This document shows, in pieces, positions 33,056 through 49,500 of a stretch of 64,000 nt of DNA. The translations under genes were made by a program, and so were the position numbers. Within the stretch, counting starts at the first letter, position 1; every line of letters begins with the position of its first letter. The stretch is taken from positions 13,486 to 77,485 of the forward strand of contig JAUSDP010000020.1 of NCBI GenBank assembly GCA_030650605.1, given 5' to 3'. This DNA comes from a bacterium (lineage in GTDB: Bacteria > Patescibacteriota > Minisyncoccia > Phycocordibacterales > Zambryskibacteraceae). The notes under the pieces were generated by a model. It saw nothing but the letters and a program-made list of their open reading frames with translations, ran no database searches and was not told the origin of the DNA.

Positions 33056-33709
33056 TTACGACTGAATATTTTTACATTTTGGATATGCGTTACAACCCAA
33101 AAAGGTTTTATTGTTCTTGCTACTTAAGCGGGTTTCCATCTTTCCTTCGCCGCATTTGGAACAGGTTTCGCCATGACCTGGCAATGAATCAAACTGAGGG
33201 CGTTCTTTTTTAGCGTACCCTCCTTTTTCGCGCTTACTTTGAATGTGAGTACCATCAATTTCAAGCATGAGGGCGCGATCCACTACTTGCTGAACATATT
33301 TTTCAATTCCACTCATAAACGCTACAGGAGTCGTTTTTCCTTCTGCCACATTTTGCAATCCAAATTCCAATAAGGCGGTTCGCCCTGGATCCCCTAGGCC
33401 CTCATCAATAAAAGAATCCAACTCGATTGCCAATGGTGAGGCATCCAAATATTTTCCATCGCGAAGAACCAAACCATCCGCAACGACTTTTTCAATCACG
33501 TCAGGTCTGGTTCTTTCCGTACCCAAACCTTTTGTCTTCATTAAAATTGATCGCATCCGATCATCAGTGACGAATTTATGGACGCCAACCATGTCATCCA
33601 ATAGCGTCGCATCGGTATATCTTGAAGGCGGAGCGGTCTTTCTTGCATCTACCCGACCACCACGAACCGATACCTGTTGGCCGGCCTGAAATGGAAGTTG
33701 AGTGGCCAC
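33056..33709 (-). CDS. C-terminal fragment of a type IA DNA topoisomerase (Topo III-like) with a Zn-ribbon; GTG start right after a TAG
   Basis: KTAPPSRYTDATLL ... TKGLGTERTRPDVIEKV matches the PPxRYTEAxL ... GIGTPATRAxII region; C-terminal CSKCG ... CNAYPKC zinc ribbon. Confidence 0.6.
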   Translation of the reverse strand: MATQLPFQAGQQVSVRGGRVDARKTAPPSRYTDATLLDDMVGVHKFVTDDRMRSILMKTKGLGTERTRPDVIEKVVADGLVLRDGKYLDASPLAIELDSFIDEGLGDPGRTALLEFGLQNVAEGKTTPVAFMSGIEKYVQQVVDRALMLEIDGTHIQSKREKGGYAKKERPQFDSLPGHGETCSKCGEGKMETRLSSKNNKTFLGCNAYPKCKNIQS

Positions 33710-33892: not shown

Positions 33893-34198
33893 TTAATGTG
33901 GATGGCTGTTTCTGGTTAGCTCGTCTCGTTGAACAAGTGCATTTTCAAATACTAAAACTTCGTTTTTCAATTTCTGAACAAAATGTTCTAGCCGGTTATC
34001 CTCGCTGAGCAAAAACAAAGAGAACCGTTCCAAACCTTTACGATCGGTTCTAATACCAATGTCTTCTTGATCTAATAGCTCCGATGCCTTCGATAAGAGA
34101 ATGCACTCATCTTCATCTGGCAAACGTTGCCGGAAATAGTTTTCCGCCGCCTGCTCAGAATGATAACGTTCCAAATCTTCGTATTGAATTTCATTCAT
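33893..34198 (-). CDS. hypothetical protein
   Basis: 101-aa ORF, 4-nt overlap with ardC. Confidence 0.4.
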   Translation of the reverse strand: MNEIQYEDLERYHSEQAAENYFRQRLPDEDECILLSKASELLDQEDIGIRTDRKGLERFSLFLLSEDNRLEHFVQKLKNEVLVFENALVQRDELTRNSHPH

Positions 34199-35172
34199 TT
34201 TGGGCTTATGGAAAACGTTTCTTCCTCATCCATTAGAGAAGAAATGCTGTCAAAATCAAAAGTAAAGTCGCTGAGATCAATTTCATTCATAGGAACGTAA
34301 TCGGGGTTATTTGTGAACTGCATCAAATAATCACTCGATTTTTCTGCCTCGGCCGCAGCTCTGAAGAAAACGTTTTTATCATTGTCGATCGCTTCCATCC
34401 AATCGCCGATATAACTTACGTGCTTATCGAGCTTATAAGAAACGCCAAAATCTGAGCATAAATAGACCGAAGTCAATTCTGCGACAAGTTCTTCTGCTGC
34501 ATAAGTTTTCATGTCACGATCCATGCGACCAGACGCCTTCGTCCAGTGAGCCATTTCATGTAGTAGGGTCGCGTAATATCCTTCCGTGTCATGAAATGAT
34601 TCTTTGGCTGGCATAGAAATCAAATCTTGACTCGGTATGTAACATGGGACATCTCTCATTCCAAACTCAAGGACGGCGCCAGATGCAGCGACCATCGCTT
34701 CAATTGCGTCATTTGAATGAATCTTAAGATCTGGAACGATAACCTCGGGCATGGAGGTCATTTGTTGAGCATTAAATACAGTGGCGTAAAAAGGACAAGG
34801 GCGATCGAGCTTCTTGTTTACGTAAACTGGCTTACCGGTTGCGGGATCGGTCTCATCAGTTTTGACACTTTTAGTGAACGACCAATATTCAATTGTTGTC
34901 CCCTTCTCTCCCTTTTTAACACTCACTTCAAGTTTTTTGGCTTGGTTGAAAGTCATCCAGCGAGAGTCGGTATAACCTCGCGCTAGAGCGACCATACCGA
35001 GCACAACTCGATTCCCTCCACGATAGCGCTTTCCGGTCGTCGGATTGAGTGGAGACATAACTGAAACAGCGCGTGCAGATGAAACGCTCCAATCCGGTTC
35101 CCAAGGCTTAAAGCCTAGGCTCAATTGATTAACAATTTCCTTGGAAAGGTTTTCGCGCAACTCTTTTGACAT
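34195..35172 (-). CDS. ardC: ArdC-family antirestriction / ssDNA-binding protein with a C-terminal zincin-like metallopeptidase
   Basis: N-terminal DUF1738-like region and C-terminal LLHEMAHWTKASGRMDRD (HExxH) as in ArdC; AGAGGA RBS. Confidence 0.8.
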   Translation of the reverse strand: MSKELRENLSKEIVNQLSLGFKPWEPDWSVSSARAVSVMSPLNPTTGKRYRGGNRVVLGMVALARGYTDSRWMTFNQAKKLEVSVKKGEKGTTIEYWSFTKSVKTDETDPATGKPVYVNKKLDRPCPFYATVFNAQQMTSMPEVIVPDLKIHSNDAIEAMVAASGAVLEFGMRDVPCYIPSQDLISMPAKESFHDTEGYYATLLHEMAHWTKASGRMDRDMKTYAAEELVAELTSVYLCSDFGVSYKLDKHVSYIGDWMEAIDNDKNVFFRAAAEAEKSSDYLMQFTNNPDYVPMNEIDLSDFTFDFDSISSLMDEEETFSISPK

Positions 35173-35383
35173 CACATCCTCTGTTTATTAATTTCGTATA
35201 TGTAATATTACACGGAAATTATAATAAAAGGAATTATGAAACGATACAAAATTAATTGGCGTACTAGCTACTCTACGAAATTCTATGGTGATTTTTTGTT
35301 TGGTTGCCGCTTCTCAAAAATTAATGCCTCACGGCCAATATAGCGAGATCGAGTTCCTACCTGCCGGCACCTTTAACTTCTTT

Positions 35384-35717
35384 TTCTCACCCCTGCACGC
35401 AGGGTATAACCATCCGAGCAACGTGTTGGTGGCACACGATCACTTCTCAACCCTGCACGCAGGGGGGATAACATGGCTGTCGGTGCTGGCGTCGTCATGT
35501 TTAATTTCTCACCCCTGCACGCAGGGGGGTAACAAACCGGTGTGGCACAACTCTTTACGTCTTCCATTCTCACCTCCGCACGCAGGGGGATAACAAGGTT
35601 AGTACAGTCGGTTGGTTTTCTGCCCTATTCTCACCCCTGCATGCAGGGGGATAACAGCATTGCAAATTGCCGGAGGATCGCCGGACCCGTTCTCACCCCT
35701 GCACGCAGGGGGATAAC
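35384..35717 (-). CRISPR. CRISPR array: 6 repeats of 27-29 nt (consensus GTTCTCACCCCTGCACGCAGGGGGATAAC on the plus strand) with 5 spacers of 32-33 nt; I-E-like hairpin repeat. Strand is uncertain: minus is inferred from the cas operon orientation and the degenerate distal repeat
   Basis: Repeats at 35384-35410 (degenerate, AGGGTATAAC), 35444-35472, 35505-35533, 35566-35594 (two substitutions), 35627-35655 (one substitution) and 35689-35717; spacers are unique. Confidence 0.85.
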
Positions 35718-35738
35718 TCTCATTATAACCTGATGATT

Positions 35739-36068
35739 TTAATCAATAATTTTGATGTCTTCACTTGTGCCAAGTTTTACATTACTATTTACGGTTAAAT
35801 ATTTTATTAGTTGTAGTCCGTGATTATCACAAACCTGTCTCGCATTTTGACCATGACTTGCAACAATAAAACCTGTTTCTGTTTTGGCAGCAAAAATGCA
35901 AATTGCCGAACATTCCGTATTTTTGATTTCATCCCAAATTTGCTTTGTTTTTCGTGAAGATAATTTCCAAACAAAAGTGCCTGGCCGAATCTCCAACATT
36001 ATCCGTTGCAGGTAACCAGTTAAACTTTTAGGGGCCTTTTTTATGTCCAAAACAACTAAACTAGTCAT
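35739..36068 (-). CDS. cas2: Cas2, I-E-like
   Basis: 109 aa; MTSLVVLD ... ETGF pattern aligns to I-E Cas2; 4-nt overlap with cas1. Confidence 0.85.
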   Translation of the reverse strand: MTSLVVLDIKKAPKSLTGYLQRIMLEIRPGTFVWKLSSRKTKQIWDEIKNTECSAICIFAAKTETGFIVASHGQNARQVCDNHGLQLIKYLTVNSNVKLGTSEDIKIID

Positions 36069-36889
36069 TTATCAGACCTCATTAAATGTTCGATAATATT
36101 AATAATTTTTGAAGCAGTGTTATCTCGCCTAAAGACATCTCTACACAACACTCGAATTCCAGATTCATTTACATTTATATTAGTTGAATATAATTCGATC
36201 GCAGCAGGAACAATTGTCTTAAATTTAATCGTGTCAGCAATATCAAATACAAATGATCGTGGATCGCCAGAATGAATGAACCCAATCGCCGGTGAATATC
36301 CAAGTGCAAGAATCGCAGCTTCGACCAATCCATAAAGCGCAGCGTTTGCTGTACTTATTGCGCGATTTAACGGATCTGACAACGAAGAACGTTGATCTCT
36401 TCCTAGCCATTTAACATTGTATCTTGCAGAAATTTCACGATACAAATCATAAACTTTTGCACCTTCGATCCCACGCAGTTGATCAATACTTCTTCCAGCT
36501 GGAGGTTCAACATCAAACATCTCCCGATAAATATTTCTCGCCATCTCCAAACGTCGCGATGGATCTAAATGAATGGAAGCTTGATGTAACAATTTTTGCG
36601 CTACAGCCCCACCTGGATTGCCAGCCGAATAACATCTAACTCCTGCCTCACCAATCCAAAGTATTAAACATCCCGATTCGGCACATGCCTTGACTGCGGC
36701 ATGTGTAACAACAGTCCCAGGTTCAATACAGATAACGCTTGTTGCACCGACAGGAAAATGTATTTTGCTATCGCCTTGTCGTAAAACGACCGCGTGCCCA
36801 TCAAGTTCAAGCACACCATATTCTGCATAAATAAAAGTTACCCGATCCACGATAGGGATCGGGTAATCTATCAACGAACGTCCACTCAA
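36065..36889 (-). CDS. cas1: Cas1 integrase, I-E-like
   Basis: 274 aa; long collinear similarity to E. coli Cas1 (GEAGVRCYSAG ... LRGIEGAKVY ... GFIHSGDPRSFVFDIAD). Confidence 0.9.
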   Translation of the reverse strand: MSGRSLIDYPIPIVDRVTFIYAEYGVLELDGHAVVLRQGDSKIHFPVGATSVICIEPGTVVTHAAVKACAESGCLILWIGEAGVRCYSAGNPGGAVAQKLLHQASIHLDPSRRLEMARNIYREMFDVEPPAGRSIDQLRGIEGAKVYDLYREISARYNVKWLGRDQRSSLSDPLNRAISTANAALYGLVEAAILALGYSPAIGFIHSGDPRSFVFDIADTIKFKTIVPAAIELYSTNINVNESGIRVLCRDVFRRDNTASKIINIIEHLMRSDK

Positions 36890-37602
36890 GCGATTAATTC
36901 CTTGGACATTACCCGATCAGTTTTTCTCCAATACGGCGGCCGGATACACGCCTGAACAGTGGCATAGGAAAATCCTGCTTTACCTGGCTCATCCAAAGGC
37001 AATACACGTAAGCGCCAATCATCTTCACGGTCATGTGATGACACATCAATGCTTGCTACACGACCGTAACCATTGCGTCCGACTTTGCCAATGTATTTAA
37101 TATGCTGAGTGAGATAATACTCAATGGCGTCAATGTCTCCAACGCCATACGCCGTAATATCACGGACCCAACGGCTTGCAGTCAACCATTGATAACCACG
37201 TTGTTGACCGCTAGCGGTTTTAATCCCAAACGTTTCAGGATCAATACCTCGCACGTTCCCATTTTTCAGAAAGCCTGAAACCCACACACCATCGGGCGTA
37301 TCTTCTGTATACAAATCCTTGAAGTACATCTCCGGATCAGATTTACGAATTTGATTCGACAGCATGATGTCACTCGATGCGGCCACAATCAATTTTGACG
37401 TTTTCCACACCCAGTCCTTGCCATCGGTGCGTGCAAGAAAATCTGACATATGCTGATCGGTCTTGGCCCAGCAATCATCCTCGCCAGCACGCTCCATTTC
37501 CTGCACGCTTGCATAGGCCAGAAGAGCATCCAGATGAATCGGATATTCCGAATCCATAAAAAGCGGCGAAGCAAGAGTGATCTTAACTTTAAAAGGCTGC
37601 AT
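36886..37602 (-). CDS. csf3: Cas5-group RAMP, Csf3-like
   Basis: N-terminal ASPLFMD ... HLD RAMP motif and C-terminal Gly-rich loop GKVGRNGYGRV; position matches csf3 in type IV-A; 4-nt overlap with cas1. Confidence 0.55.
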   Translation of the reverse strand: MQPFKVKITLASPLFMDSEYPIHLDALLAYASVQEMERAGEDDCWAKTDQHMSDFLARTDGKDWVWKTSKLIVAASSDIMLSNQIRKSDPEMYFKDLYTEDTPDGVWVSGFLKNGNVRGIDPETFGIKTASGQQRGYQWLTASRWVRDITAYGVGDIDAIEYYLTQHIKYIGKVGRNGYGRVASIDVSSHDREDDWRLRVLPLDEPGKAGFSYATVQACIRPPYWRKTDRVMSKELIA

Positions 37603-37631
37603 AAAAATGCTCCTGATTGAGGTGTTGATTT

Positions 37632-38846
37632 CTATCGAGCTAATTTTTTAGCAGCAGCTTTGGCTTCTTTTTCAAGTGCCTTTGCCGCCTTTTCTTCAGC
37701 TGCTTTCAGCGCTTTTTCTTCGGCTTTGCGCTCCTTATCAACCGCTTTGGCCGCTTTTTCTTCGTCAGTGGCAATCACTGGTGGCTTCATGATGGCGTCC
37801 AGACGCTCTCCACTCAATTCAGACGCAGCAATTTTCCACGCATTCAAATAGACAGCAATTGATGGATCAGCTTTGATCAACGAGTTATTGTTAAAAATCG
37901 TATCGGTCACATCAACATTGTCACCAGTATTAATCGCGATCGCCACATCATTGAGGCGAATACGGCCAAGTCCATTACGAGTTTGTCCACCGATGGACGT
38001 TTTTGCCAGTCCATCAAGACTTAACAAAAATAGACCAATTTGTGCATCGGTAACATCGGTCAATTCAACAGTAAAATCAAAATCAACGCCTGGATCTACA
38101 AATTCAAATGCACTCCACGCTTTAGTGCTGTTGCGACTTCCTTTTTCTTCTGCGTCCTTCGCTAGCTGATCCTCAATGATCAACCGCTGACGTGCATTAA
38201 ATTGAACTTCAAAGTCCGTTACAACACCTTCCATCCGATCTACATCAAGAAGTGCACTAACGTCATCGCCGCGTCGAAATGCCGCCCCGCGCGAAATATT
38301 CATGCCCGATGTTGCTTTCCCTACTCCCCGTGGGTGACCTACAGAAAAGCCAGATGATCGCAGACTATCCATGACGGGCACTGCATCAAGAACACGCATA
38401 CGACGACGCAACATACGCGGACCACCACCAAAAAGTCCAACATAAGGATGTGACGATACCTCCTTATATTCAGCAAACGTCAGATCGCGAGAATCGGGCT
38501 TTCCTGTCACAGCGCCGCAAGTAATTGCAGAGTACGTTTGCAAAGTGATCTTTTGATTCTTCTCACGAAGAACATTGACAAGAATTTGAGCACCCTGACG
38601 ACGCAAACGACCTGCAATATTATTCGCGGCAATGACAGCGACACCATAATCGAGTCCATCGACAGATCCAGGGGCAAAACGACGACGCTGAATACCGGCA
38701 CAGGCGATGCCTCCTTTGGTTCCGTTTTTAACAAGGCCATAGCCGGTTGAATCGCTTACTTCGTAGCGGAAGGTTTCTGGTGATGCGATGTGCAATGGAG
38801 ACAAAGTAGTCAAGATTGCGTGGATGGTGACTGATTTTTTGGACAT
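37632..38846 (-). CDS. csf2: Cas7-group RAMP, Csf2-like backbone protein, with an unusual Lys/Ala/Glu-rich C-terminal tail
   Basis: N-terminal TTLSPLHIASPE (Cas7 signature); about 350-aa RAMP body; C-terminal EEKAAKAVDKERKAEEKALKAAEEKAAKALEKEAKAAAKKLAR. Confidence 0.55.
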   Translation of the reverse strand: MSKKSVTIHAILTTLSPLHIASPETFRYEVSDSTGYGLVKNGTKGGIACAGIQRRRFAPGSVDGLDYGVAVIAANNIAGRLRRQGAQILVNVLREKNQKITLQTYSAITCGAVTGKPDSRDLTFAEYKEVSSHPYVGLFGGGPRMLRRRMRVLDAVPVMDSLRSSGFSVGHPRGVGKATSGMNISRGAAFRRGDDVSALLDVDRMEGVVTDFEVQFNARQRLIIEDQLAKDAEEKGSRNSTKAWSAFEFVDPGVDFDFTVELTDVTDAQIGLFLLSLDGLAKTSIGGQTRNGLGRIRLNDVAIAINTGDNVDVTDTIFNNNSLIKADPSIAVYLNAWKIAASELSGERLDAIMKPPVIATDEEKAAKAVDKERKAEEKALKAAEEKAAKALEKEAKAAAKKLAR

Positions 38847-38902
38847 GATATTAAGCTTTCTAGTTGAGTTAAATGAACAGCTAATAAATTACAAATACGG
38901 GA

Positions 38903-39670
38903 TTAATCACTGGTTTCTGCAGGTGTGAAATCATCGATACCGGCACCTGGGGTCAATAAGAATCGTAGTCCCCATGTTTCGCCTAGCGTCAAATTTCTCA
39001 AAAATTCAATTTCATTCTTAAATTGTTTCAATAGATCAGCATGTATTTCCGCTTTCGCTGGATCTGAAGGCATGTTGAGACGAAGCGTTCCATGTCCGAT
39101 TTCTTTCAAATCGGCAGACAAACGAAGAAATGGATGGACCAATGTTTTCGCCGTTGCTTCAAATCCAAACGCTTTACCAACCTGCTGACTGACCTCGACG
39201 GCCTGCATCAAAATGGCATGTCTGATTTTTACATCCCGCAGTCCAACCCGTACATAAAACAATTCGGGAGAGAAATTCACGGGCGCTCGCCATGCCATAT
39301 GTTGATTATTTGCCGTGGCATACACCGCCACAAAGGGTTCTTGCGGTGGATTAGTCAATGCGGAAGAAATTTCGAGCCACTTGCGAAATGGAATATAGGC
39401 AGACTTGGTAAATACGCCATATCCTGTTTCTTTCAATGCAGTTGCACTCATCAAAGTGGCGCAATATCCACACATCAAATCACTACCACGTGCAGCGAGA
39501 GACAAGTCATCCATGAAAGCTGCAGATACTGAGAACGGGCTAGACAGATCACCAACGGCAATATGCAATCCGCAAAAAGCACAGCAACCTTCTTTTTTGG
39601 AAGCAACCCCTTCAGGCGATTCACCTCGGGACTGCGTCACAATCACAGAGGAAGTTATAGTTAAGCTCAT
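38903..39670 (-). CDS. csf1: Csf1-like zinc-finger small subunit (Cas8-like)
   Basis: CCAFCG ... CGYC zinc finger; ATG overlaps the cas6 stop (ATGA) with GGAGGA RBS; position matches csf1. Confidence 0.5.
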   Translation of the reverse strand: MSLTITSSVIVTQSRGESPEGVASKKEGCCAFCGLHIAVGDLSSPFSVSAAFMDDLSLAARGSDLMCGYCATLMSATALKETGYGVFTKSAYIPFRKWLEISSALTNPPQEPFVAVYATANNQHMAWRAPVNFSPELFYVRVGLRDVKIRHAILMQAVEVSQQVGKAFGFEATAKTLVHPFLRLSADLKEIGHGTLRLNMPSDPAKAEIHADLLKQFKNEIEFLRNLTLGETWGLRFLLTPGAGIDDFTPAETSD

Positions 39671-40416
39671 CGTTCTATCCTCCGACGAATCAATCCATAT
39701 CCACGCGAACGCAGTTTTCCTGCCATCCAAGGACCATTTAGTGAAATGTTGGTACAAAAGGTAATATTCTTAAAAGCCGCTGCAGGAATCCCGGGCTTAA
39801 TCGGAATTGGTACTGACTCTCCTTCTAAAATATCCAAAATAAGACTGTCGTCAGATGGGATACCATGCTCTAGAAGATGTGGCGTACCAAGGTCTTCATC
39901 GAGCCACCGAGCCATAGAGATCAGACCGTTTAAAATTTCTTTTTTAATTTCAGGCGCTCGCTCTTGAGCCGTCACACCAAAAAAGTGAGAAAGCTTCGCC
40001 GGTTTTTTTGACACGATCAATTTACGGATGGAGTAAAGGATCGGTTCGCTCATTTGAAGCTCACAATCACCGTGTTTAAATTCCATACGGTATGGCCCAC
40101 CGAGATGTTTGGACAGTGCTGTCACGATCGACGCAGTATGTTCTGCCAATAAGTCCGTGCCAGATTTGCCAATACCATAGATGCGAATAAATCCGTTTCC
40201 ACCATCAAAAATAATGCTTGGAGGTAGACCGAAACCTTCTCCCTTGCGATCATCTCCATAACGACCCTGGAGTGTTTTACCATCTGGGCCGCGAGCGAAA
40301 ATAGCAGGATCAATTGATCGACCATCACAAGCCTTGGCCACTAACGATCGGGCATCTTCAGGATAGATCTGCTGCCCTTTTAGTACTTCAGGAAATAACA
40401 AAAGTTCTTTATACAT
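39667..40416 (-). CDS. cas6: Cas6 endoribonuclease (Cas6e/Csf5-like)
   Basis: C-terminal Gly-rich loop AGKLRSRGYGLI resembles Cas6e GxxKSMGCGLL; first gene of the operon. Confidence 0.6.
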   Translation of the reverse strand: MYKELLLFPEVLKGQQIYPEDARSLVAKACDGRSIDPAIFARGPDGKTLQGRYGDDRKGEGFGLPPSIIFDGGNGFIRIYGIGKSGTDLLAEHTASIVTALSKHLGGPYRMEFKHGDCELQMSEPILYSIRKLIVSKKPAKLSHFFGVTAQERAPEIKKEILNGLISMARWLDEDLGTPHLLEHGIPSDDSLILDILEGESVPIPIKPGIPAAAFKNITFCTNISLNGPWMAGKLRSRGYGLIRRRIER

Positions 40417-40574
40417 GTTGTGTGTCCAATTATTTGTTTAGTTGGTGTAACGAATATTACTCTACAAAAAAAATATAGCAAGTAGGAATTTAATTTTAAT
40501 AAGTAAATACACTTGATGAAATTTTCTTTATTTGGGCTATAATTTGCCCATATTAACCAATGCCGAGGATTCTC
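40417..40574. promoter_or_regulatory. divergent promoter region between the cas operon (minus) and dinG (plus)
   Basis: AT-rich 158 bp; TATAAT at about 40538 on the plus strand; TTGCTA-16-TAATAT on the minus strand. Confidence 0.35.
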
Positions 40575-42872
40575 ATGAACGCAGCCGCACAGCGAAATGT
40601 ACAAGTGCCTTTGGTAGATCCCGTCAAAAACCACGTCGGGGCCTCGATCTCAGATGCTTATCGCAGTCTTATTCGTTTTGCCATTAATGCAAAACTACCT
40701 CCGAAAGCAGTAGAACTTGAAGGTATTCCTCGTGTAAGCGTGTTTTTCCCGCCTGCGTTATTCGCTCAAATCTCAGAAATCGCTGAACTTCATCAACTGT
40801 CATATCAATCTACAGTAGCTGGGCTGGCGATAGCCGGTGCAGAAAAAATAGCCGAAAAAAATGAATTGGTAGAACAATTCAAAAGTGATGTTCCATTTAG
40901 GGCGCGTCCGGAACAAGTTCTTTTCTACCAATCAATTATGGCCGGGCTGTCATCATCTAAAATCGTCGTTGCAGAAGCCTCTACTGGCGCAGGCAAGGGA
41001 CGTGCATTGATGGCTGCCGCTATCGCATCAGCTCAAAACGGAAAACTCCCTGTCATCGTCGCAGCACCAACAATCGTCGTCGTTAATCAACTATGGGCTG
41101 AACTGCAGGTACTTCGCACGCAAGACAATATGGGACCGCTTATTTCAGCAACGATCCTACCTGGCTCTGCAGATCTGGCAGATGACGTCAAACTTTTGGA
41201 GTGGGCAAACGATCCTGATTTTAATCAACTCGATCCTGCGGTGACAGAATGGATCCTTAAGGGTGGACCTCACAAAGCTAACGATGCGATGGCGCAAGTA
41301 GCCAAAGAACAAGGAATTACCCTTTGCTGGATGATGTCCGACTTGCAAGAGATTGCAACTAACTTCCCTTCTGATGACTATGTTTTAACGACGAATAGCG
41401 AAGACAAGACAACGCTCTCGCAATCGCGAGAATTGTTAGCCAAAATTCGTGAAGCCGCCAATCGGAAAGACGTCGATAAAAATATGAACACGGTTCACGC
41501 CGGTGCGGACATTATCCTTTGCACCCACGCCATGTTAGCGCTTGGACAAATGACAAAATGGGTTGTGCTCCCGCAACCAAAAGTGCTGATCGTCGACGAA
41601 GCCCATCTTCTAGAAGAAACAATTTCAAGAATGAATAGTCAGCAAATTTCACTATTTTCGATTAGTTATCGCCTAAGCCGTTTTTGCCGCGCAACAGGGG
41701 CAGGAAAAGGAACCGTAGCCAGGGACACTCAAGCAAAGGCCAAACAGTTCCTGCGTACTTGTATGGAAATGTCAAACAATGATATTCGTCAAAAACTCAA
41801 TGACGATCCGTCTAAATATGACACTGTTCAAAAGGGATTGGCCAGTCTCGCCAATATGGTTAAAAACAAGGTTTTTAAGTCGGATCCAACCATTCAAAAA
41901 GATATGTATTCTCTTTTGTCTGGCACAGCCAATATGATGGAGAAGGATCGGTCCAAAAACAGTACGCATCTTCAATTCTCTCCTGATAGGCGGTACCCAT
42001 TGATCAGTGTCGGAGCCGATACGATCGGAATGCAGGCTGGAGCCATTTGGAAGACCGTAGACGGTGGTGCCGTACTTGCGTCGGCTACCATGTACATCAC
42101 CGATGAATATGGCAACCAGAAGTGCGATTACGTGGTTCGAAATCTTTCAATCCCGCTCTCCAGGCTGGACACCCCTCTTCCTGTCGTGAGCAGCTATATT
42201 TACACCCTTCCAACACTATACTTACCAAAAAAAGAAAACTATGCGGCACTGTCTCGCCCAGCATTGAAAGAGAGGGAGGACCCTCAAGTGGAGAAAGAAT
42301 GGTTGAAAAATATTGCTGATGTTGTCGCCAAAAATGCTAAAACATGCAAAGGCGGAACGCTGGTACTCACAAATTCCTATGACCAGATTGACGAGATCTC
42401 CACGCAACTGAAAGAAAAATACCCTGAGATCGCGGCCAGAGTCATTGTCCAGGTACGCAAGGCAAAATTTTCAGCCGCAGTGAACGCATTCACTCTGGCG
42501 CATAGCAATGGCGTAAAGCCGATTTTGATTGGGCTTGGCCCGGCCTGGACAGGGCTCAATTTGTCGCAAGATGTATCCGATCCTAAAAAAGATACTCTGC
42601 TGATGGACCTTGTCATCGCCTGTAGCCCGATCGGACTGAACCAAACTGCGACAATGCTTCGCCGTATTGAGCAAACCAATACAAGTGCGATAGCGAAAGA
42701 AGGACTACTTATTTTAAAACAAGGGCTTGGGCGGTTGATTCGTCGCGATGGTGTTGAAGGACGTCGAATTTGGATCTTGGATGGCAGAATCTGGTCAGAT
42801 AATTGGCTGAAGCAATTTACGGGGCCGGCTAAACGTTTGTTGGGTAAATATAAAAATGTGGATTATTTTTAG
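40575..42872 (+). CDS. csf4: DinG-family (Rad3/XPD-like) SF2 helicase, CasDinG/Csf4-like
   Basis: Walker A AEASTGAGKGRA; DEAH box VDEAHLLEE; about 766 aa; GAGGA RBS; divergent from the cas operon. Confidence 0.8.
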   Translation: MNAAAQRNVQVPLVDPVKNHVGASISDAYRSLIRFAINAKLPPKAVELEGIPRVSVFFPPALFAQISEIAELHQLSYQSTVAGLAIAGAEKIAEKNELVEQFKSDVPFRARPEQVLFYQSIMAGLSSSKIVVAEASTGAGKGRALMAAAIASAQNGKLPVIVAAPTIVVVNQLWAELQVLRTQDNMGPLISATILPGSADLADDVKLLEWANDPDFNQLDPAVTEWILKGGPHKANDAMAQVAKEQGITLCWMMSDLQEIATNFPSDDYVLTTNSEDKTTLSQSRELLAKIREAANRKDVDKNMNTVHAGADIILCTHAMLALGQMTKWVVLPQPKVLIVDEAHLLEETISRMNSQQISLFSISYRLSRFCRATGAGKGTVARDTQAKAKQFLRTCMEMSNNDIRQKLNDDPSKYDTVQKGLASLANMVKNKVFKSDPTIQKDMYSLLSGTANMMEKDRSKNSTHLQFSPDRRYPLISVGADTIGMQAGAIWKTVDGGAVLASATMYITDEYGNQKCDYVVRNLSIPLSRLDTPLPVVSSYIYTLPTLYLPKKENYAALSRPALKEREDPQVEKEWLKNIADVVAKNAKTCKGGTLVLTNSYDQIDEISTQLKEKYPEIAARVIVQVRKAKFSAAVNAFTLAHSNGVKPILIGLGPAWTGLNLSQDVSDPKKDTLLMDLVIACSPIGLNQTATMLRRIEQTNTSAIAKEGLLILKQGLGRLIRRDGVEGRRIWILDGRIWSDNWLKQFTGPAKRLLGKYKNVDYF

Positions 42873-43130: not shown

Positions 43131-43463
43131 ATGAATCAGAAAGCTTCCATGAAAAACTCCTTCATACCCTCATTCCAGTGTGAATCTGCCCTTGAAGACA
43201 TGGGTAGTAAGTTGCGCATTGCGCGACTTCGCCGTAACGAGTCGGTGCAAATCGCCGCGCAACGTCTTGGCATCTCTCGCGCCAAGTATCAACGGCTTGA
43301 AAATGGCGACTCGAACGTATCCGCTGGCGCATTGATTGAAGCGCTCATCCTGTACGGCTTTGAATCGCAGGTATTTGCCCTGGCGGACCCAGATTTAGAT
43401 GAAACTGGAAAAAGGTTAGAAAAACAATTGCTCCCAAAACGAGGACGTACTCATGCAAAGTAA
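43131..43463 (+). CDS. hipB: HipB-like XRE HTH antitoxin (start uncertain)
   Basis: LRIARLRRNESVQIAAQRLGISRAKYQRLENG is an XRE HTH; overlaps the downstream hipA by 11 nt. Confidence 0.7.
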   Translation: MNQKASMKNSFIPSFQCESALEDMGSKLRIARLRRNESVQIAAQRLGISRAKYQRLENGDSNVSAGALIEALILYGFESQVFALADPDLDETGKRLEKQLLPKRGRTHAK

Positions 43464-44775
43464 ATCGAAATTAATAGAAACACCACTCTATGTTTACAAG
43501 ACGGGCGAGGATCTCCCTATATTAATTGGAGAACTTGGCTTTATTTCCGACACGCAGAATGAGTTCCTTGCACAATTTAATTACGATGCGTCGTACATAA
43601 TTCGACCTGATGCATTCGCAATCGATCCGTTGAATATGCCGTTGGCTGCACCAACCAAAGAATACAGCACCACAAATAGGTATCACGTTCTTGGAGCATT
43701 GTTTGACGCAGCTCCAGATGCTTGGGGCCGTAAGGTAATCAGTGCGAAAGTTGGCGTTTCCCAGGCATCAGAAAAAACCATTCTGTTAAAGGGAAACGGA
43801 ATGGGTGTCGGTGAGCTTTTCTTTTCAGCATCCCTGCTTGAAAGTAACCCCACTTTTCTTAAAATTCCAACTATTGACCAAATTGAGCAACTGGCCAGCC
43901 CGATCACGCAAGTAGATGAAGGGGCTAAATTTAATCCAGCTTGGGAAAATCTATTGATCAGTTCCTGGGACATTGGCGGGGCCAGGCCGAAGGCAATTGT
44001 TTTGGACGAATCGGGCGAGCACTGGATTGCAAAATTTCCTCGCAAGGGTGAAACATATGATCGCCAACGCGTCGAATGGGCGAACCTTGAAATGGCGGCC
44101 GACATTGGCATGGATGTACCGGAACGCAGGCTTATCGAGACGCAATATGGCGCCGTATTGCTGGTCAAACGATTTGATCGCAGCTTGGACAAGAAAAGCC
44201 ACTATCTGAGCGCAGCATCAGTCATCAGTCCGTCGCCGACAATTGATAAACGTCAAATCGATGCTCCAATCGGACAGGCAACGTTTTCCTATGCACGTAT
44301 CGCCGACACGATACAACGAATCTCAAATTATCCTAGTCGGGATCTGCAGGAACTTTATGCAAGAATGGTTTTCAATGTTCTTACCCACAATACGGACGAC
44401 CATCTAAAAAATACAGGCTTTCTAAGAGTAAAAGATGCACGGGATCCATATGCATATCGACTGTCGCCATTGTTCGATGTGGTGACCCAGGAGGGATCTC
44501 TAAAGCACATGCTACAGATCGGGAAAGCTGGGCGCGAGAGCACTATAGAAAATGCACTCTCCAACGTGCGTCGCATGAGAATAAAAGAGGACGCGGCGCA
44601 AAAAATCGTGCAAATAGCGCGATCTGTGTTTGATCGCCGAGCAGAATATTACGACAGAGCCGGATTGCAATCAGATGAAGTTGAGGCATTGGAAAGGTGT
44701 TTCACATGGCTGAGATCTGCTCGGGTTGCGGATGTTGAAATTGAAGACGAAGAGAGTGGATCGGCACCGCGATAG
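43453..44775 (+). CDS. hipA: HipA-family serine/threonine kinase toxin
   Basis: DIGGARPKAIV and VLTHNTDDHLKNTGF motifs (HipA P-loop-like and catalytic motifs). Confidence 0.85.
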   Translation: MQSKSKLIETPLYVYKTGEDLPILIGELGFISDTQNEFLAQFNYDASYIIRPDAFAIDPLNMPLAAPTKEYSTTNRYHVLGALFDAAPDAWGRKVISAKVGVSQASEKTILLKGNGMGVGELFFSASLLESNPTFLKIPTIDQIEQLASPITQVDEGAKFNPAWENLLISSWDIGGARPKAIVLDESGEHWIAKFPRKGETYDRQRVEWANLEMAADIGMDVPERRLIETQYGAVLLVKRFDRSLDKKSHYLSAASVISPSPTIDKRQIDAPIGQATFSYARIADTIQRISNYPSRDLQELYARMVFNVLTHNTDDHLKNTGFLRVKDARDPYAYRLSPLFDVVTQEGSLKHMLQIGKAGRESTIENALSNVRRMRIKEDAAQKIVQIARSVFDRRAEYYDRAGLQSDEVEALERCFTWLRSARVADVEIEDEESGSAPR

Positions 44776-45030: not shown

Positions 45031-45336
45031 ATGGCTGGCAAATTCCCTAAAATTACCAATCCTCCATCACCTCAAATTTCCTCAGCGCAGGAATTAGGGC
45101 TATGGATACGCGCACGCCGCATTGCGGCCGGCATTCGTATTGATGATGCCGCCGCACTTTCTAACGTGTCGGTGCAATTGTTGTCGGATTTGGAAAATGG
45201 CAATCGCTCGGTCGGTATCGATAAAGTGTTTGCGGTAATCAATTGCTTAGGGCTGGACCTGATGGTAAAGCCACGCGGTGAAGATCTCGACGACAGAGAT
45301 GCAGAAACTGAGGCTGACAATGCTCCCAAAAACTAA
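45031..45336 (+). CDS. hipB: HipB-like XRE HTH antitoxin (second copy)
   Basis: LWIRARRIAAGIRIDDAAALSNVSVQLLSDLENG. Confidence 0.7.
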   Translation: MAGKFPKITNPPSPQISSAQELGLWIRARRIAAGIRIDDAAALSNVSVQLLSDLENGNRSVGIDKVFAVINCLGLDLMVKPRGEDLDDRDAETEADNAPKN

Positions 45337-46696
45337 CGAACTGATTATCTGGATCGAAAATATTCGGGTAGGTGCGCTTGAGGTCAATGAGCTGGGGCAA
45401 TTCCGACTGAATTATGAGTCCGCCTGGGTCGCATCCCCCACTGGCTATCCAATTTCACCAACACTTCCTCTTGCAGGCAGCGAGGATTCTGCCGAAATAC
45501 ACTCCGCAAAAGTACGTTTCTTCTTTTCGAATCTATTGCCAGAGGGAAAAAGCCTTGACGAAGCCGTCCTGGCGAATGGACTATCGAAGTCAAATGTCTT
45601 CGGCCTGCTTCACGCCTTGGGCAAAGAGAGTGCCGGCGCATTAATGCTCTTGCCTCCAAGTCAGCACCCAGAAACGCTTACTAGCGATAGTGATTTGCGC
45701 GAAATCACCAATGCTGAACTTTCCGAGCGAATTCGGGCGATGCCCAACGTCCCCTTTTCCGTTTGGGATGGCAAAGTGCGTATGTCCATCGCCGGATACC
45801 AAGCCAAACTGGCCGTCCACAAGACTCAAGATGGACGCCTGTGGTTAGCGAGCGGGAAGAGCGCTTCCACGCACATTTTAAAGCCTCAGGCGAGCGCATT
45901 GAATGAATGCCAAGTCGCCAATGAGTATTTCTGCATGCGCTTAGCCGCTATGTCAGGCATCGAGTCGGCCGAGGTTGATATTCTGCGCGTGCCAGAACCT
46001 ATCTTAGTGATCAAACGATTTGATCGCCAGCTGATCAGTGGCGTTGCACGCCGCTTGCATATCATTGATGCCTGCCAGGCGCTCAACAAGTCACCAGAAC
46101 AAAAATATGAACGCAATTTCGGAGCCGGCGAACACGTAAAACACATCCGGGATGGCGTCTCGATTAAAAACTTGTTCTCGATCACCGACTTAGCAACCAA
46201 TAAGGCCGATATGACCTTGCGCCAGTTGCGCTGGCTTATTTTTCAGCACTTGATCGGCAACTCGGATGCACACGGAAAAAACATGTCGTTTTACGTGGCG
46301 CGTGATGGGCTGAAAATGGCTCCAGCCTACGATCAACTCAGTGTAACTATCTACCCGACAATCAATCATGAATTTGCCATGGCAATTGGTGATGAGTTCC
46401 TGGAAGAGGCAATTCGGGCTTACCAGTGGGCCGACTTCGCCATTCAAGTCGGACTCAACCCTGGCTTGGTCGCACGCACGATTAAACATGTCGCTAACAA
46501 AGCAAATCGTGCGCTGCCAACTCTCTTGGCAGATCCGATATTGACTGATGTTGAGAAGAACTTTCTCAACAGGTTGGCGAATCAAATCCAGGTGCGAGTT
46601 GAAAAGTTTTTGGAAATTGCAAAAATTCTTCCTGGCGTTGCTCGCGATATCGCTGATGAAGACGTTGCTGTAACTCTTACTGATATTTGCAAATAA
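45320..46696 (+). CDS. hipA: HipA-family kinase toxin (second, divergent paralogue)
   Basis: SIAGYQAKLAV and LIGNSDAHGKNMSF motifs; GAGG RBS before MLPKTNE; overlaps hipB by 17 nt. Confidence 0.85.
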   Translation: MLPKTNELIIWIENIRVGALEVNELGQFRLNYESAWVASPTGYPISPTLPLAGSEDSAEIHSAKVRFFFSNLLPEGKSLDEAVLANGLSKSNVFGLLHALGKESAGALMLLPPSQHPETLTSDSDLREITNAELSERIRAMPNVPFSVWDGKVRMSIAGYQAKLAVHKTQDGRLWLASGKSASTHILKPQASALNECQVANEYFCMRLAAMSGIESAEVDILRVPEPILVIKRFDRQLISGVARRLHIIDACQALNKSPEQKYERNFGAGEHVKHIRDGVSIKNLFSITDLATNKADMTLRQLRWLIFQHLIGNSDAHGKNMSFYVARDGLKMAPAYDQLSVTIYPTINHEFAMAIGDEFLEEAIRAYQWADFAIQVGLNPGLVARTIKHVANKANRALPTLLADPILTDVEKNFLNRLANQIQVRVEKFLEIAKILPGVARDIADEDVAVTLTDICK

Positions 46697-48803: not shown

Positions 48804-49500
48804 AGGCGTAAAGTTTAAAAAAGAAGGGGATGTTCTTCGTTTCGCATGCGCTACGTAATGCACTGACCCAACTCATTTTCATTGGCCGCGCATGGGGGCC
48901 AGATTCACCTCCAACCACGATCCAATCCAATGTTTCACCGAATTGACCATGTGTCTCAGGCAGAGATACGGGACCAAGTAAGGGCTCCATACTCAACCAA
49001 CGCGTTGCAGCTGGCGTACCCAATAACTTTGCTATATCGCGGTCTGCTTCATCTTGGTTAACCACAGAGATACCCAACCAAACATTCGAATAGCCACATC
49101 CCCAATCTGCCGGAAGCATGTCTGCCACATTACCGATGCGCTTGGTGAGAATCAACCAATCCAGATTTGGTGTTGATCTGACGAGTGCCCAAAGATCATC
49201 GCGCCAGGTTGTATCAACTCGATTATCAAATACGTCGGAGAGTGAGGCGCAAAAAACACGACGCTTACGACCATGCATCGCAAAAAAATCGGGATGCCCG
49301 GAATTCCAACGAATTGGTAACTTCCAGTTTGCGGCGCTGGTACGTTGACGAGTTTCCTTCGGGCCCCAGACTATCTTCATAGTGCGTGATGGAGTGCTTA
49401 CTTCTGCATAGCAGTGATCGCATCCAGGCGAAATCTTGGAGCATCCAATCCACGGATTGAAAGTGCTATCTGTCCAAGAAATATTTGTTTCAGCGGCCAC
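48796..49500 (-). CDS. phage Gp37/Gp68-family protein (DUF5131, three-Cys motif)
   Basis: ISWTDSTFNPWIGCSKISPGCDHCYAE matches the family signature WTxxTWNPxxGCxxxSxGCxxCYA. Confidence 0.75.
   Translation of the reverse strand: MAAETNISWTDSTFNPWIGCSKISPGCDHCYAEVSTPSRTMKIVWGPKETRQRTSAANWKLPIRWNSGHPDFFAMHGRKRRVFCASLSDVFDNRVDTTWRDDLWALVRSTPNLDWLILTKRIGNVADMLPADWGCGYSNVWLGISVVNQDEADRDIAKLLGTPAATRWLSMEPLLGPVSLPETHGQFGETLDWIVVGGESGPHARPMKMSWVSALRSACETKNIPFFFKLYAYV

What the first reader, a model, noticed from the sequence alone, without database searches (positions are those of the whole stretch)
35384..42872. Type IV-A-architecture CRISPR-Cas (cas6-csf1-csf2-csf3 plus divergent CasDinG) with its own I-E-type cas1-cas2 fused into the operon
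Reading the minus strand from 40416 to 35384 gives a Cas6 with a Cas6e-like Gly-rich loop, a Zn-finger small protein, a Cas7 (SPLHIAS N-motif), a Cas5-like RAMP, then Cas1 and Cas2 and a 6-repeat array. A 766-aa DEAH/DinG helicase is divergently encoded upstream. There is no Cas3, Cse1 or Cse2, so this is not a type I-E system. The zinc-finger Csf1, the Cas7/Cas5/Cas6 order and the DinG together match type IV-A, which is known to be plasmid-borne. Type IV loci usually lack an adaptation module and borrow the host's. Here csf3/cas1 and cas1/cas2 overlap by 4 nt each, so the adaptation module looks like an integral part of the effector operon. The repeats are I-E-like, matching the I-E-like Cas1 and the Cas6e-like Cas6.
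Basis: partly seen in the sequence, partly recalled or inferred. Interest (0 to 1): 0.85.

Follow-up and report, generated by a model that had tools for sequence, protein, structure and literature searches.

The report
Type IV-A CRISPR with own Cas1-Cas2
A conjugative element of an uncultured bacterium carries a complete type IV-A1 CRISPR-Cas system whose operon also encodes its own I-E-type spacer-acquisition genes; this is rare in sequenced plasmids, but here it proves to be one member of a sizeable, mostly metagenomic lineage.

Summary
On the minus strand, 40416 to 35384 encodes cas6/csf5, csf1, csf2, csf3, cas1, cas2 and a 6-repeat array. A CasDinG gene is divergent at 40560-42872. Csf1, Csf2, Csf3, Csf4, Cas1e and Cas2e all pass NCBIfam's curated cut-offs. 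The cas6/csf1, csf3/cas1 and cas1/cas2 junctions each overlap by 4 nt. No Cas3, Cse1 or Cse2 was found in the 64 kb.

The window also carries IncI/Dot-type transfer genes (DotA/TraY, TraW) and ArdC, so the host is a conjugative element.

The architecture is not a one-off:
- 10 of 11 contig look-ups with relatives of this Cas1 (47-98% identity) returned type IV-A loci, most with the same gene order.
- These Cas1 proteins form clades separate from Cas1 of true I-E loci, and they co-diverge with Csf3 (rho 0.81).
- Every cas1-bearing array has the I-E-like 61-bp period. Five of nine leaders share an IHF-like motif 19-23 nt upstream of repeat 1.
- Rhodoferax antarcticus keeps a truncated cas1 fused to its array, which looks like decay in progress.

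This lineage is absent from 72,556 PLSDB plasmids.

In this window the array is small and eroded, and its spacers have no detectable targets.

Interest is moderate.

The parts
40560..42872 (+). csf4 / CasDinG helicase (770 aa, or 765 aa from the ATG at 40575). Walker A motif (ASTGAGKG) and DEAH box (VDEAHLL) are present.
   Evidence: NCBIfam cas_csf4 460.7 bits against a cut-off of 400; PADLOC Csf4_1_IVA1 2.8e-147. Closest solved structure is P. oleovorans IV-A1 DinG, 8rfj_K, 3.6e-58. Motifs read from the translation.
40417..40559 (.). Divergent intergenic region between cas6 and dinG, with promoter-like hexamers facing both ways.
   Evidence: Plus strand 40516-40543 (ATGAAA-16-TATAAT, 10/12). 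Minus strand 40499-40472 (TTAAAA-16-TATATT, TG-extended). These are consensus matches only; the count over the whole region is not above shuffled expectation.
39667..40416 (-). cas6 / csf5 crRNA endoribonuclease (249 aa).
   Evidence: NCBIfam cas6_csf5 6.4e-26 (91.6 bits, below the 150 cut-off); PADLOC typeIV_Cas6 8.7e-26; precomputed Pfam PF28248 Cas6_csf5 on the identical Logan gene. Weak match to Csf5 chains 8rc3_M and 9n3y_H.
38903..39670 (-). csf1, the Cas8-like large subunit (255 aa) with a CxxC...CxxC zinc finger. Its ATG overlaps the cas6 stop (ATGA).
   Evidence: NCBIfam cas8u_csf1 233.7 bits against a cut-off of 140; PADLOC typeIV_Cas8 2.4e-54. Junction sequence. Gene call of 255 aa on L001.
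37632..38846 (-). csf2, the type IV Cas7 backbone subunit (404 aa), with a Lys/Ala/Glu-rich C-terminal tail of about 45 aa.
   Evidence: NCBIfam cas7_csf2 280.9 bits against a cut-off of 130. PDB Csf2 chains 9n3y_C, 7xfz_C and 8rc3_A at 1e-20 to 2e-18.
36886..37602 (-). csf3, the type IV Cas5 (238 aa).
   Evidence: NCBIfam cas5_csf3 160.3 bits against a cut-off of 140; PADLOC typeIV_Cas5 8.8e-43.
36065..36889 (-). cas1, I-E-type integrase (274 aa). Its TTG start overlaps the csf3 stop (TTGA). The catalytic residues are conserved as E142, H206 and D219 (equivalent to E. coli E141, H208, D221).
   Evidence: NCBIfam cas1_ECOLI 281.7 bits against a cut-off of 215.6. E. coli Cas1 structures 3nkd and 5ds4 at about 8e-76, with residue alignment. 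Junction sequence.
35739..36068 (-). cas2, I-E type (109 aa). It overlaps cas1 by 4 nt. Its last roughly 20 codons double as the CRISPR leader.
   Evidence: NCBIfam Cas2e 49.7 bits against a cut-off of 33.15; Pfam Cas_Cas2CT1978 2.6e-17.
35718..35830 (-). Leader. Only 21 nt separate the cas2 stop codon from repeat 1. An IHF-like motif, AAAATTATTGATT (35753-35741), ends 23 nt upstream of repeat 1 and overlaps the cas2 stop codon. Promoter-like hexamers lie at 35830-35801 and 35773-35746.
   Evidence: Sequence. An IHF-like motif in the same orientation lies 19-23 nt upstream of repeat 1 in the window, L023, L105, L106 and L110. Promoter-like sites are consensus matches only.
35384..35717 (-). 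CRISPR array.

Repeats: R1 35690-35717, R2 35628-35655, R3 35567-35594, R4 35506-35533, R5 35444-35472, R6 35384-35410.

Spacers: S1 35656-35689, S2 35595-35627, S3 35534-35566, S4 35473-35505, S5 35411-35443.

The period is 60-62 bp. All six repeats are distinct.
   Evidence: R1, R2 and R4 fold into a 6-bp G+C stem with a 4-nt loop (-10.6 to -11.8 kcal/mol). R3 does not fold (-4.6, z-score about 0). R5 and R6 fold weakly.

Best explanation
This is a self-contained type IV-A1 CRISPR-Cas system carried by a conjugative element of an uncultured bacterium. The contig also encodes IncI/Dot-type transfer genes.

Gene layout (shown): one minus-strand operon encodes Csf5 (Cas6), Csf1, Csf2, Csf3, Cas1e and Cas2e and runs straight into the CRISPR array. 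CasDinG is transcribed divergently from the shared intergenic region.

Proposed mechanism (inferred):
1. The pre-crRNA is made by read-through from the cas operon, or from a promoter inside the 3' end of cas2.
2. Csf5 cuts at the repeat hairpins.
3. Csf1, Csf3, Csf5 and several Csf2 subunits assemble on each crRNA.
4. The complex binds matching double-stranded DNA and recruits CasDinG.
5. As in the studied IV-A1 and IV-A3 systems, this silences or destabilises rival mobile elements without cutting them.

What differs from the studied systems: new spacers are inserted by the element's own Cas1e-Cas2e integrase at the cas2-proximal repeat. Insertion would use an I-E-style leader with an IHF-like site that overlaps the end of cas2. 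The system therefore would not need a host I-E system in trans.

Status of each step:
- Shown here: the identity of the parts, their linkage, and the recurrence and co-divergence of this arrangement.
- Inferred: transcription, crRNA processing, interference and autonomous adaptation.

In this particular copy the array looks old and partly eroded, so adaptation is probably infrequent or dormant.
For: Identity of the parts:
- Six of the seven proteins pass curated family cut-offs. The seventh, Csf5, is supported by three independent profile sets.
- Catalytic or signature residues are intact in Cas1, CasDinG and Csf1. In Cas1 they are E142, H206 and D219. CasDinG keeps its Walker A motif and DEAH box, and Csf1 keeps its Zn finger.

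Operon fusion:
- 4-nt overlaps join cas6/csf1, csf3/cas1 and cas1/cas2.
- 21 nt separate the cas2 stop codon from repeat 1.

Recurrence:
- The same gene order is found in L002-4, L102/103, L105, L106, L108, L109, L110, L022 and L023. A second IV-A architecture that ends in dinG-cas1-cas2 is found in L104 and L111.
- Of 11 contig look-ups with relatives of this Cas1, only P0045 was a true I-E locus.

A dedicated Cas1 lineage:
- In a neighbour-joining tree, the 62-leaf clade that holds the window's Cas1 has 32 leaves of known IV-A context and none of known I-E context. A separate 92-leaf clade has 53 I-E leaves and no IV-A leaves.
- Pairwise Cas1 identity tracks Csf3 (Spearman 0.81), Csf1 (0.71) and Csf2 (0.66).

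Signs that adaptation works in the lineage:
- All cas1-bearing arrays have a 61-bp period, hold 12-42 repeats and lie just downstream of cas2. Where checked, they also have degenerate distal repeats and a mostly-G 29th nucleotide, as in I-E.
- IV-A1 loci without cas1 have array periods of 66 or 60 bp.
- An IHF-like motif sits 19-23 nt upstream of repeat 1 in 5 of 9 leaders.

Mobile-element context: DotA/TraY (413.5 bits), TraW and ArdC.
Against: - No experiment or RNA data is available.
- The window's own array is small, with 5 spacers. All 6 repeats differ from one another, whereas in several relatives (L002, L023, L106) every repeat is identical.
- Repeat 3 has lost its hairpin.
- The 29th nucleotide is C, T, T, A, G, A rather than mostly G. 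This argues against recent I-E-style acquisition in this copy.
- The five spacers match nothing in the window, the fetched loci, PLSDB, the phage collection or IMG/VR. No target or PAM can therefore be named.
- Promoter-like sites are not more frequent than in shuffled sequence.
- The trees are neighbour-joining without support values, and 30 leaves of the 62-leaf clade have unknown context.
Confidence: 0.85

Rival explanations
1. The cas1-cas2-array block is the leftover of a type I-E locus that landed next to a type IV-A operon by chance. The two modules would be neighbours, not one system.
For: Cas1, Cas2, the repeat shape and the 61-bp period are all I-E type. The nearest true I-E Cas1 (P0045, in loci L005-7) is 54% identical, no further away than some IV-A-linked Cas1 proteins.
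Against: - The csf3/cas1 junction is a 4-nt overlap.
- The same junction and gene order recur over Cas1 identities of 47-98%.
- The Cas1 proteins co-diverge with Csf3, Csf1 and Csf2.
- They cluster apart from Cas1 of true I-E loci.
- No I-E effector remnant is present in the window.
Confidence: 0.03
2. The locus is a decaying copy. The effector may still use the few old spacers, but adaptation is dead, and the copy is on the same path as the Rhodoferax antarcticus locus, which has already lost most of cas1 and all of cas2.
For: - All six repeats differ, repeat 3 no longer folds, and repeats 5 and 6 carry indels.
- There are only 5 spacers, against 11-41 in relatives.
- There is no G preference at nucleotide 29.
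- The closest named relative, R. antarcticus ANT.BR (Csf2 61%, Csf3 69%), has cas1 cut at residue 86 and fused to an array with a triplicated spacer.
Against: - All seven ORFs are full length, with catalytic residues intact.
- The leader motif is conserved.
- Repeats 1, 2 and 4 still form the canonical hairpin.
- A second sample (Logan SRR13727527) carries the same locus, with the other six Cas proteins 100% identical and Cas1 99.6% (one substitution).
Confidence: 0.3
3. The system is a minimal type I-E variant that has swapped Cas3 for a DinG helicase, rather than a type IV system.
For: The adaptation module, repeat architecture and spacer length are I-E-like.
Against: - The effector proteins match Csf1, Csf2 and Csf3 above curated cut-offs.
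- They give no match to Cse1, Cse2, Cas7e, Cas5e or Cas6e models or sequences.
- Csf2 aligns to solved IV-A Csf2 chains.
Confidence: 0.01

Closest known systems
Type IV-A1 CRISPR-Cas of Pseudomonas oleovorans and P. aeruginosa PA83 (structures 8rc3/8rfj, 7xfz-7xg4, 9n3y)
   Same: It has the same set of effector genes: csf5, csf1, csf2, csf3 and dinG. The effector genes are followed by an array on a mobile element. Csf2 and DinG align to those solved chains. In these systems CasDinG-dependent, nuclease-free interference has been shown (PMC11519345, PMC11656645).
   Different: - Sequence distance is large. Csf1 and DinG are about 27-29% identical to the P. oleovorans locus L020, and tblastn with Csf2 found no hit there.
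- The studied systems have no cas1-cas2.
- Here cas1-cas2 are translationally coupled to csf3, and the array has the I-E period.
Type IV-A3 of Klebsiella plasmids, which acquires spacers in trans through the host I-E Cas1-Cas2e (Benz et al., bioRxiv 10.1101/2023.06.23.546257)
   Same: A type IV-A effector is paired functionally with an I-E-type integrase. The repeats are I-E-like, the leader carries an IHF site, and spacers are 33 nt long.
   Different: In Klebsiella the integrase is chromosomal and borrowed from the host. Here it is encoded inside the type IV operon of the mobile element itself. The variant also differs: A1 here (Csf1 with a zinc finger) against A3.
Type IV loci with recaptured adaptation modules (Moya-Beltran et al. 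2021, CRISPR J 4:656). This paper was not held by the tools; its content is cited from my memory of the abstract.
   Same: As I recall, that survey reports that the adaptation module and array were lost in the type IV ancestor and regained by type IV systems on several occasions. It also reports unusually heterogeneous repeats. Both features fit this locus.
   Different: I could not check whether the csf3-cas1e-cas2e lineage found here is among the loci they describe. The monophyly and co-divergence seen here point to long joint inheritance rather than many recent captures.
Canonical type I-E adaptation module (E. coli Cas1-Cas2; 3nkd, 5ds4)
   Same: Cas1 aligns over 262 residues at 8e-76, with E141, H208 and D221 conserved. 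Cas2 is of the Cas2e family. The repeat unit is 61 bp and the leader has an IHF-like motif.
   Different: - There is no Cas3 or Cascade.
- Cas1 lacks the roughly 30-residue C-terminal tail.
- Cas1 has D and F where E. coli has K211 and Y217.
- The leader is compressed into the 3' end of cas2.

Membership tests
Type IV CRISPR-Cas | Csf2, the type IV-specific Cas7 and the signature gene of the type | tested here: met
   NCBIfam cas7_csf2 1.5e-83, 280.9 bits against a cut-off of 130. Aligns to solved Csf2 chains.
Type IV CRISPR-Cas | Csf3 (Cas5) and Csf1 (small Cas8-like large subunit) | tested here: met
   Csf3 160.3 bits against 140; Csf1 233.7 bits against 140. CxxC...CxxC motif visible in the translation.
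Type IV CRISPR-Cas | No effector nuclease (no Cas3 HD domain, Cas10 or HNH) | tested here: met
   No Cas3 or Cas10 hit above noise for the locus proteins or for the ten largest other ORFs tested. tblastn with a I-E Cas3 found nothing in the window. DinG is 770 aa with no extra nuclease domain in Pfam.
Subtype IV-A | CasDinG (Csf4) helicase | tested here: met
   NCBIfam cas_csf4 460.7 bits against 400; PADLOC Csf4_1_IVA1 2.8e-147. Matches PDB 8rfj_K.
Subtype IV-A | Own Cas6-family endoribonuclease and an adjacent CRISPR array | tested here: met
   Csf5-type Cas6, below the NCBIfam cut-off but supported by PADLOC and Pfam PF28248. Six-repeat array at 35384-35717.
Variant IV-A1 | Csf1 present, and gene order cas6-csf1-csf2-csf3 with dinG alongside | tested here: met
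   Order read. The best dinG hit and the only variant-specific csf1 and cas6 hits in PADLOC are the IVA1 models.
Subtype IV-A | Carried by a plasmid, ICE or prophage | tested here: met
   DotA/TraY (TIGR04346, 413.5 bits), TraW, ArdC, a topoisomerase and a polyvalent-protein domain lie in the same window. Whether the element is a plasmid or an ICE was not resolved. No tRNA gene is present in the window.
Subtype IV-A | crRNA-guided, DinG-dependent interference | not testable with these tools
   This needs plasmid-interference or CRISPRi assays. No protospacer was found for any of the five spacers.
I-E-type adaptation module | Cas1e and Cas2e family membership with the catalytic residues present | tested here: met
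   cas1_ECOLI 281.7 bits against 215.6; Cas2e 49.7 bits against 33.15. E142, H206 and D219 align to E. coli E141, H208 and D221.
I-E-type adaptation module | Repeat-plus-spacer unit of about 61 bp, and a leader with an IHF site next to repeat 1 | tested here: met
   Periods of 60-62 bp here and 61 bp in all cas1-bearing relatives. An IHF-like motif ends 23 nt upstream of repeat 1, at a position conserved in 5 of 9 leaders. IHF binding itself was not tested.
I-E-type adaptation module | PAM-derived G as the last repeat nucleotide, and polarised acquisition at the leader end | tested here: inconclusive
   Nucleotide 29 is mostly G in L023, L106, L110, L105 and L022, but reads C, T, T, A, G, A in the window. 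The window's repeats all differ, so there is no sign of recent duplication of repeat 1.
Type I-E CRISPR-Cas (as a whole system) | Cascade genes cse1, cse2, cas7e, cas5e and cas6e, plus cas3 | tested here: not met
   None detected in the window.

The most novel reading that the evidence does not exclude
This Cas1e-Cas2e is not an occasional add-on. It would be a dedicated type IV-A adaptation module that has been inherited together with the Csf genes across a large, mostly uncultured branch of IV-A.

On this reading, autonomy in adaptation is ancestral for that branch. The cas1-less IV-A1 loci that have shaped the 'type IV borrows its integrase' picture, and the half-deleted Rhodoferax copy, would be secondary losses.

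The clade-wide K211D and Y217F changes in Cas1 would then mark a spacer-selection rule tuned to the Csf complex rather than to Cascade.
Probability: 0.4. Interest if true: 0.55.

Novelty: new member of a known kind. Interest (0 to 1): 0.4.

Why it matters
Type IV-A systems are usually described as lacking Cas1-Cas2. The one tested case (IV-A3) borrows a host I-E integrase.

A compact seven-gene operon that carries its own integrase is a ready natural model. It allows three questions to be asked:
- Can a type IV system adapt autonomously?
- How is self-targeting of the carrier plasmid avoided?
- Are the PAM choices of the integrase and of the Csf effector matched?

The survey also shows that curated plasmid collections miss this lineage entirely. 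No Csf2 relative and no Cas1 above 49% identity were found in 72,556 PLSDB records. This helps explain why the 'no adaptation module' generalisation persists.

For this particular locus the result is confirmatory rather than surprising.

Tried and rejected
- **Megablast of the locus against PLSDB:** no match.
- **tblastn of Csf2 against PLSDB at E <= 1e-20:** no match. The Cas1 query hit only records annotated as ordinary I-E or left unannotated, at no more than 49% identity.
- **Spacer targets:** none were found in five places.
  - In the window and all fetched loci, using blastn-short.
  - In PLSDB and in the phage collection, using the five spacers concatenated at E <= 1.
  - In IMG/VR, using exact patterns with every sixth base free.
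- **Genome-collection scan with a 49-sequence Csf2 alignment:** A 15-sequence alignment worked but returned only 14 loci.
- **Metagenome scan with a Cas1 alignment:** Only 2 of the 80 loci (L022, L023) were IV-A.
- **Key survey paper:** the survey of type IV adaptation modules (Moya-Beltran 2021), the 2020 classification paper and Faure 2019 are not held by the paper tools. The supplement of Pinilla-Redondo 2020 that lists the exceptions is not held either.
- **Structure prediction:** not run, because six of the seven proteins already pass curated profile cut-offs.
- **Rejected readings:** a I-E variant with DinG, and a chance juxtaposition of two systems. Reasons are given under the rival explanations.

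Full report

Yes. The ORF list shows a run of six co-directional genes on the minus strand:
- cas6 at 40416-39667
- csf1 at 39670-38903
- csf2 at 38846-37632
- csf3 at 37602-36886
- cas1 at 36889-36065
- cas2 at 36068-35739

A 770-aa helicase gene is divergent at 40560-42872. Three junctions are 4-nt overlaps. cas6/csf1 is ATGA, csf3/cas1 is TTGA with a TTG start, and cas1/cas2 overlap by coordinates.

Repeat 1 begins 21 nt after the cas2 stop codon. The array runs from 35717 to 35384, with six repeats of about 28 nt and five spacers of 33-34 nt. The repeat core occurs six times in the window against zero expected, and nowhere else.

**2. What are the genes?**

NCBIfam scores against curated cut-offs:
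- Csf1 233.7 / 140
- Csf2 280.9 / 130
- Csf3 160.3 / 140
- Csf4 (CasDinG) 460.7 / 400
- Cas1e 281.7 / 215.6
- Cas2e 49.7 / 33.15

The Cas6 matches the type IV Csf5 model at 6.4e-26, below that model's cut-off. It also matches PADLOC typeIV_Cas6 (8.7e-26) and carries the precomputed Pfam family Cas6_csf5.

PADLOC's best model for DinG is the IV-A1 one, and the only variant-specific models matched by Csf1 and Cas6 are also IV-A1.

Csf2 and DinG align to the solved IV-A1 complexes of P. aeruginosa and P. oleovorans. Cas1 aligns to E. coli Cas1 at 8e-76 and keeps the catalytic E, H and D residues. DinG keeps its Walker A and DEAH motifs, and Csf1 keeps its zinc finger.

No Cas3, Cse1, Cse2, Cas7e, Cas5e or Cas6e is detectable in the 64 kb.

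**3. Context**

The window encodes several genes typical of conjugative elements:
- DotA/TraY (5122-7305) and TraW (26535-27806), both IncI/Dot-type transfer proteins
- ArdC (34195-35175)
- a polyvalent-protein domain
- a topoisomerase
- RdgC
- a large Sno-like helicase/methylase
- two HipBA-like modules

There is no tRNA gene. The G+C content is 44%.

The identical Csf2 and Csf3 are on record from a 164,825-bp NCBI MAG contig labelled only '[bacterium]', where Csf3 is annotated as hypothetical. The same locus is on a 10.6-kb Logan contig from SRR13727527.

The carrier is thus a conjugative plasmid or ICE of an uncultured bacterium. Its closest named relative is a Rhodoferax locus.

**4. Is the fusion a one-off?**

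No. I took relatives of this Cas1 and looked up their contigs. Ten of eleven look-ups returned type IV-A loci.

Loci with the same order as the window (dinG, cas6-csf1-csf2-csf3-cas1-cas2, array):
- L002-4, from JGI, with Cas1 65% identical, on a contig with ParA and a relaxase
- L102/103, from ENA and NCBI GCA_027385275.1
- L105, from NCBI GCA_000205605.2
- L106
- L108
- L109
- L110
- L022 and L023

Two further loci, L104 and L111, show a different IV-A layout that ends in dinG-cas1-cas2. Only P0045 (54% identical) sits in a true I-E locus with cas3, cse1, cse2, cas7e, cas5e and cas6e.

Matching of contig lengths between the Cas1, Csf2 and Csf3 hit lists adds about twenty more linked pairs.

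In a neighbour-joining Cas1 tree:
- The 62-leaf clade containing the window has 32 leaves of known IV-A context and none of known I-E context.
- A 40-leaf clade has 3 IV-A leaves and no I-E leaves.
- A 92-leaf clade has 53 I-E leaves and no IV-A leaves.

Pairwise Cas1 identity correlates with that of Csf3 (Spearman 0.81), Csf1 (0.71) and Csf2 (0.66). On a Csf2 tree, cas1-bearing loci are spread over most of the sampled diversity, with cas1-less loci interspersed. These trees carry no support values and should be read as indicative.

**5. Loss caught in progress**

The closest locus from a cultured organism is Rhodoferax antarcticus ANT.BR (Csf2 61%, Csf3 69%). Its csf3 is followed by a cas1 that stops at residue 86, exactly where a 61-bp-period array starts. 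cas2 is gone, and the first three spacers are identical.

The other IV-A1 loci found in 185,579 species genomes (L009-L012, L014) have no cas1. The arrays examined among them have periods of 66 bp (L009, L010) or 60 bp (L014).

None of 72,556 PLSDB plasmids holds a Csf2 relative at E <= 1e-20, or a Cas1 more than 49% identical. The lineage is therefore essentially metagenomic. This fits the literature's wording that type IV loci lack adaptation genes 'almost exclusively' (PMC7038947), 'frequently' (PMC11519345) or 'in many cases' (PMC11656645).

From memory, the abstract of Moya-Beltran et al. 2021 (CRISPR J 4:656) states that adaptation modules were regained by type IV systems several times, and that type IV repeats are unusually heterogeneous. 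That paper was not available to check.

**6. How the adaptation side probably works**

All cas1-bearing relatives have arrays directly after cas2, with a 61-bp unit and 12-42 repeats. In several relatives (L002, L023, L106) every repeat is identical, and where the arrays were inspected the distal repeats are degenerate. The 29th nucleotide is mostly G. These features match E. coli I-E, where that G comes from the PAM (10.1101/2023.06.23.546257).

The space between cas2 and repeat 1 is only 21-72 nt, so the leader must extend into cas2.

An IHF-like motif (WATCAANNNNTTR, at most one mismatch) lies 19-23 nt upstream of repeat 1. It has the same orientation in the window, L023, L105, L106 and L110. 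By my rough estimate, the chance of one such hit in a given 5-nt window is well below 1% per leader.

In the window the motif is AAAATTATTGATT at 35753-35741, overlapping the cas2 stop codon.

Promoter-like hexamers lie inside the 3' end of cas2 and in the cas6/dinG intergenic region. However, such sites are no more frequent than in shuffled sequence.

**7. State of this copy**

The array is short. All six repeats differ from one another. Repeats 1, 2 and 4 keep a 6-bp G+C stem with a 4-nt loop, repeat 3 no longer folds, and repeats 5 and 6 are weakened by indels. Nucleotide 29 reads C, T, T, A, G, A.

No spacer has a match in the window, the fetched loci, PLSDB, the phage collection or IMG/VR.

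All seven genes are intact. I therefore rate the system as probably functional for interference, but with rare or dormant adaptation. Outright decay is a live rival at about 0.3.

**8. Comparison and verdict**

On the effector side this works like the studied IV-A1 systems. On the adaptation side it works like I-E.

It passes every testable membership feature of type IV, subtype IV-A and variant A1, and of the I-E adaptation module. It fails the test for a whole I-E system.

The kind is type IV-A with its own adaptation module. It is acknowledged in the literature as a rare exception and has, to my knowledge, not been studied experimentally. This locus is a new member of that kind. It is a correct and well-read finding of moderate interest.

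The more interesting result is the size and coherence of the lineage it belongs to.

Noticed in passing
window 37635-37775 (minus strand; Csf2 residues ~358-404): Csf2 ends in a tail of about 45 aa rich in Lys, Ala and Glu (…EEKAAKAVDKERKAEEKALKAAEEKAAKALEKEAKAAAKKLAR). The solved IV-A1 Csf2 proteins (347-359 aa) lack this tail. The consensus of the closest homologues also shows a K/A-rich end. It may be a non-specific DNA-binding tail.
   Followed up: no
window 43131-44775 and 45031-46696 (+); L109 1-1395: Two HipB/HipA-like toxin-antitoxin pairs sit directly downstream of dinG. A HipA/HTH pair is also next to dinG in the unrelated relative L109. This may be a recurrent neighbour of these IV-A loci, or a coincidence.
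   Followed up: partly
window 19411-20436 (-): An AAA ATPase matches PADLOC IetA at 4.5e-72 (the Iet plasmid/phage defence system). No large protease-like IetS partner ORF is evident next to it.
   Followed up: no
L102 5523-5555 versus L102 224-256 (also L103 241-273): The oldest spacer of a related IV-A array with cas1-cas2 matches the cas6/csf5 gene of its own element with 3 mismatches. This looks like targeting of a rival, closely related IV-A element. It fits the idea of competition between mobile elements.
   Followed up: partly
L008 11928-12400 (Rhodoferax antarcticus ANT.BR, NZ_MSYM01000020.1): cas1 is truncated after 86 codons exactly at the first CRISPR repeat, and cas2 is absent. The first three repeat-spacer units are identical 61-bp copies, and the remaining repeats are heterogeneous. 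This appears to be a deletion or recombination derivative of the cas1-cas2-bearing form.
   Followed up: yes
L104 3761-10081 (GCA_028873515.1) and L111 2587-9078: A second type IV-A layout places cas1-cas2 directly after dinG. In L111 the order is csf3, an unassigned gene, a Cas6e-family gene (PF08798), cas7, dinG, cas1, cas2. Their Cas1 proteins are 55-59% identical to the window's. L104 has an 18-repeat array with a 61-bp period.
   Followed up: partly
window 36065-36889 (Cas1 residues D209, F215): Where E. coli Cas1 has K211 and Y217, the window's Cas1 has D and F. The consensus of the IV-A-linked Cas1 proteins shows the same two residues. From memory of the Cas1-Cas2-protospacer structures, these two residues contact the PAM-complementary bases. 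The protein also lacks the roughly 30-residue C-terminal tail. This could mean a different spacer-selection motif.
   Followed up: no
window 50100-51620 (-) and 33056-33709 (-): A 506-aa Toprim/topoisomerase core is 16 kb away from a separate 217-aa protein. The core matches Pfam Topoisom_bac at 1.8e-57 and PADLOC DpdF at 2.6e-38. The 217-aa protein ends in a topoisomerase-type Cys4 zinc finger. Whether this is a split topoisomerase or two unrelated genes was not examined.
   Followed up: no
window 47088-48863 (-) and 55253-60574 (-): Two large cargo genes. One is a 591-aa GHKL-type ATPase (HATPase_c_3) of unknown role. The other is a 1773-aa protein that combines an N6-methylase domain with Strawberry-notch-like helicase domains.
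   Followed up: no
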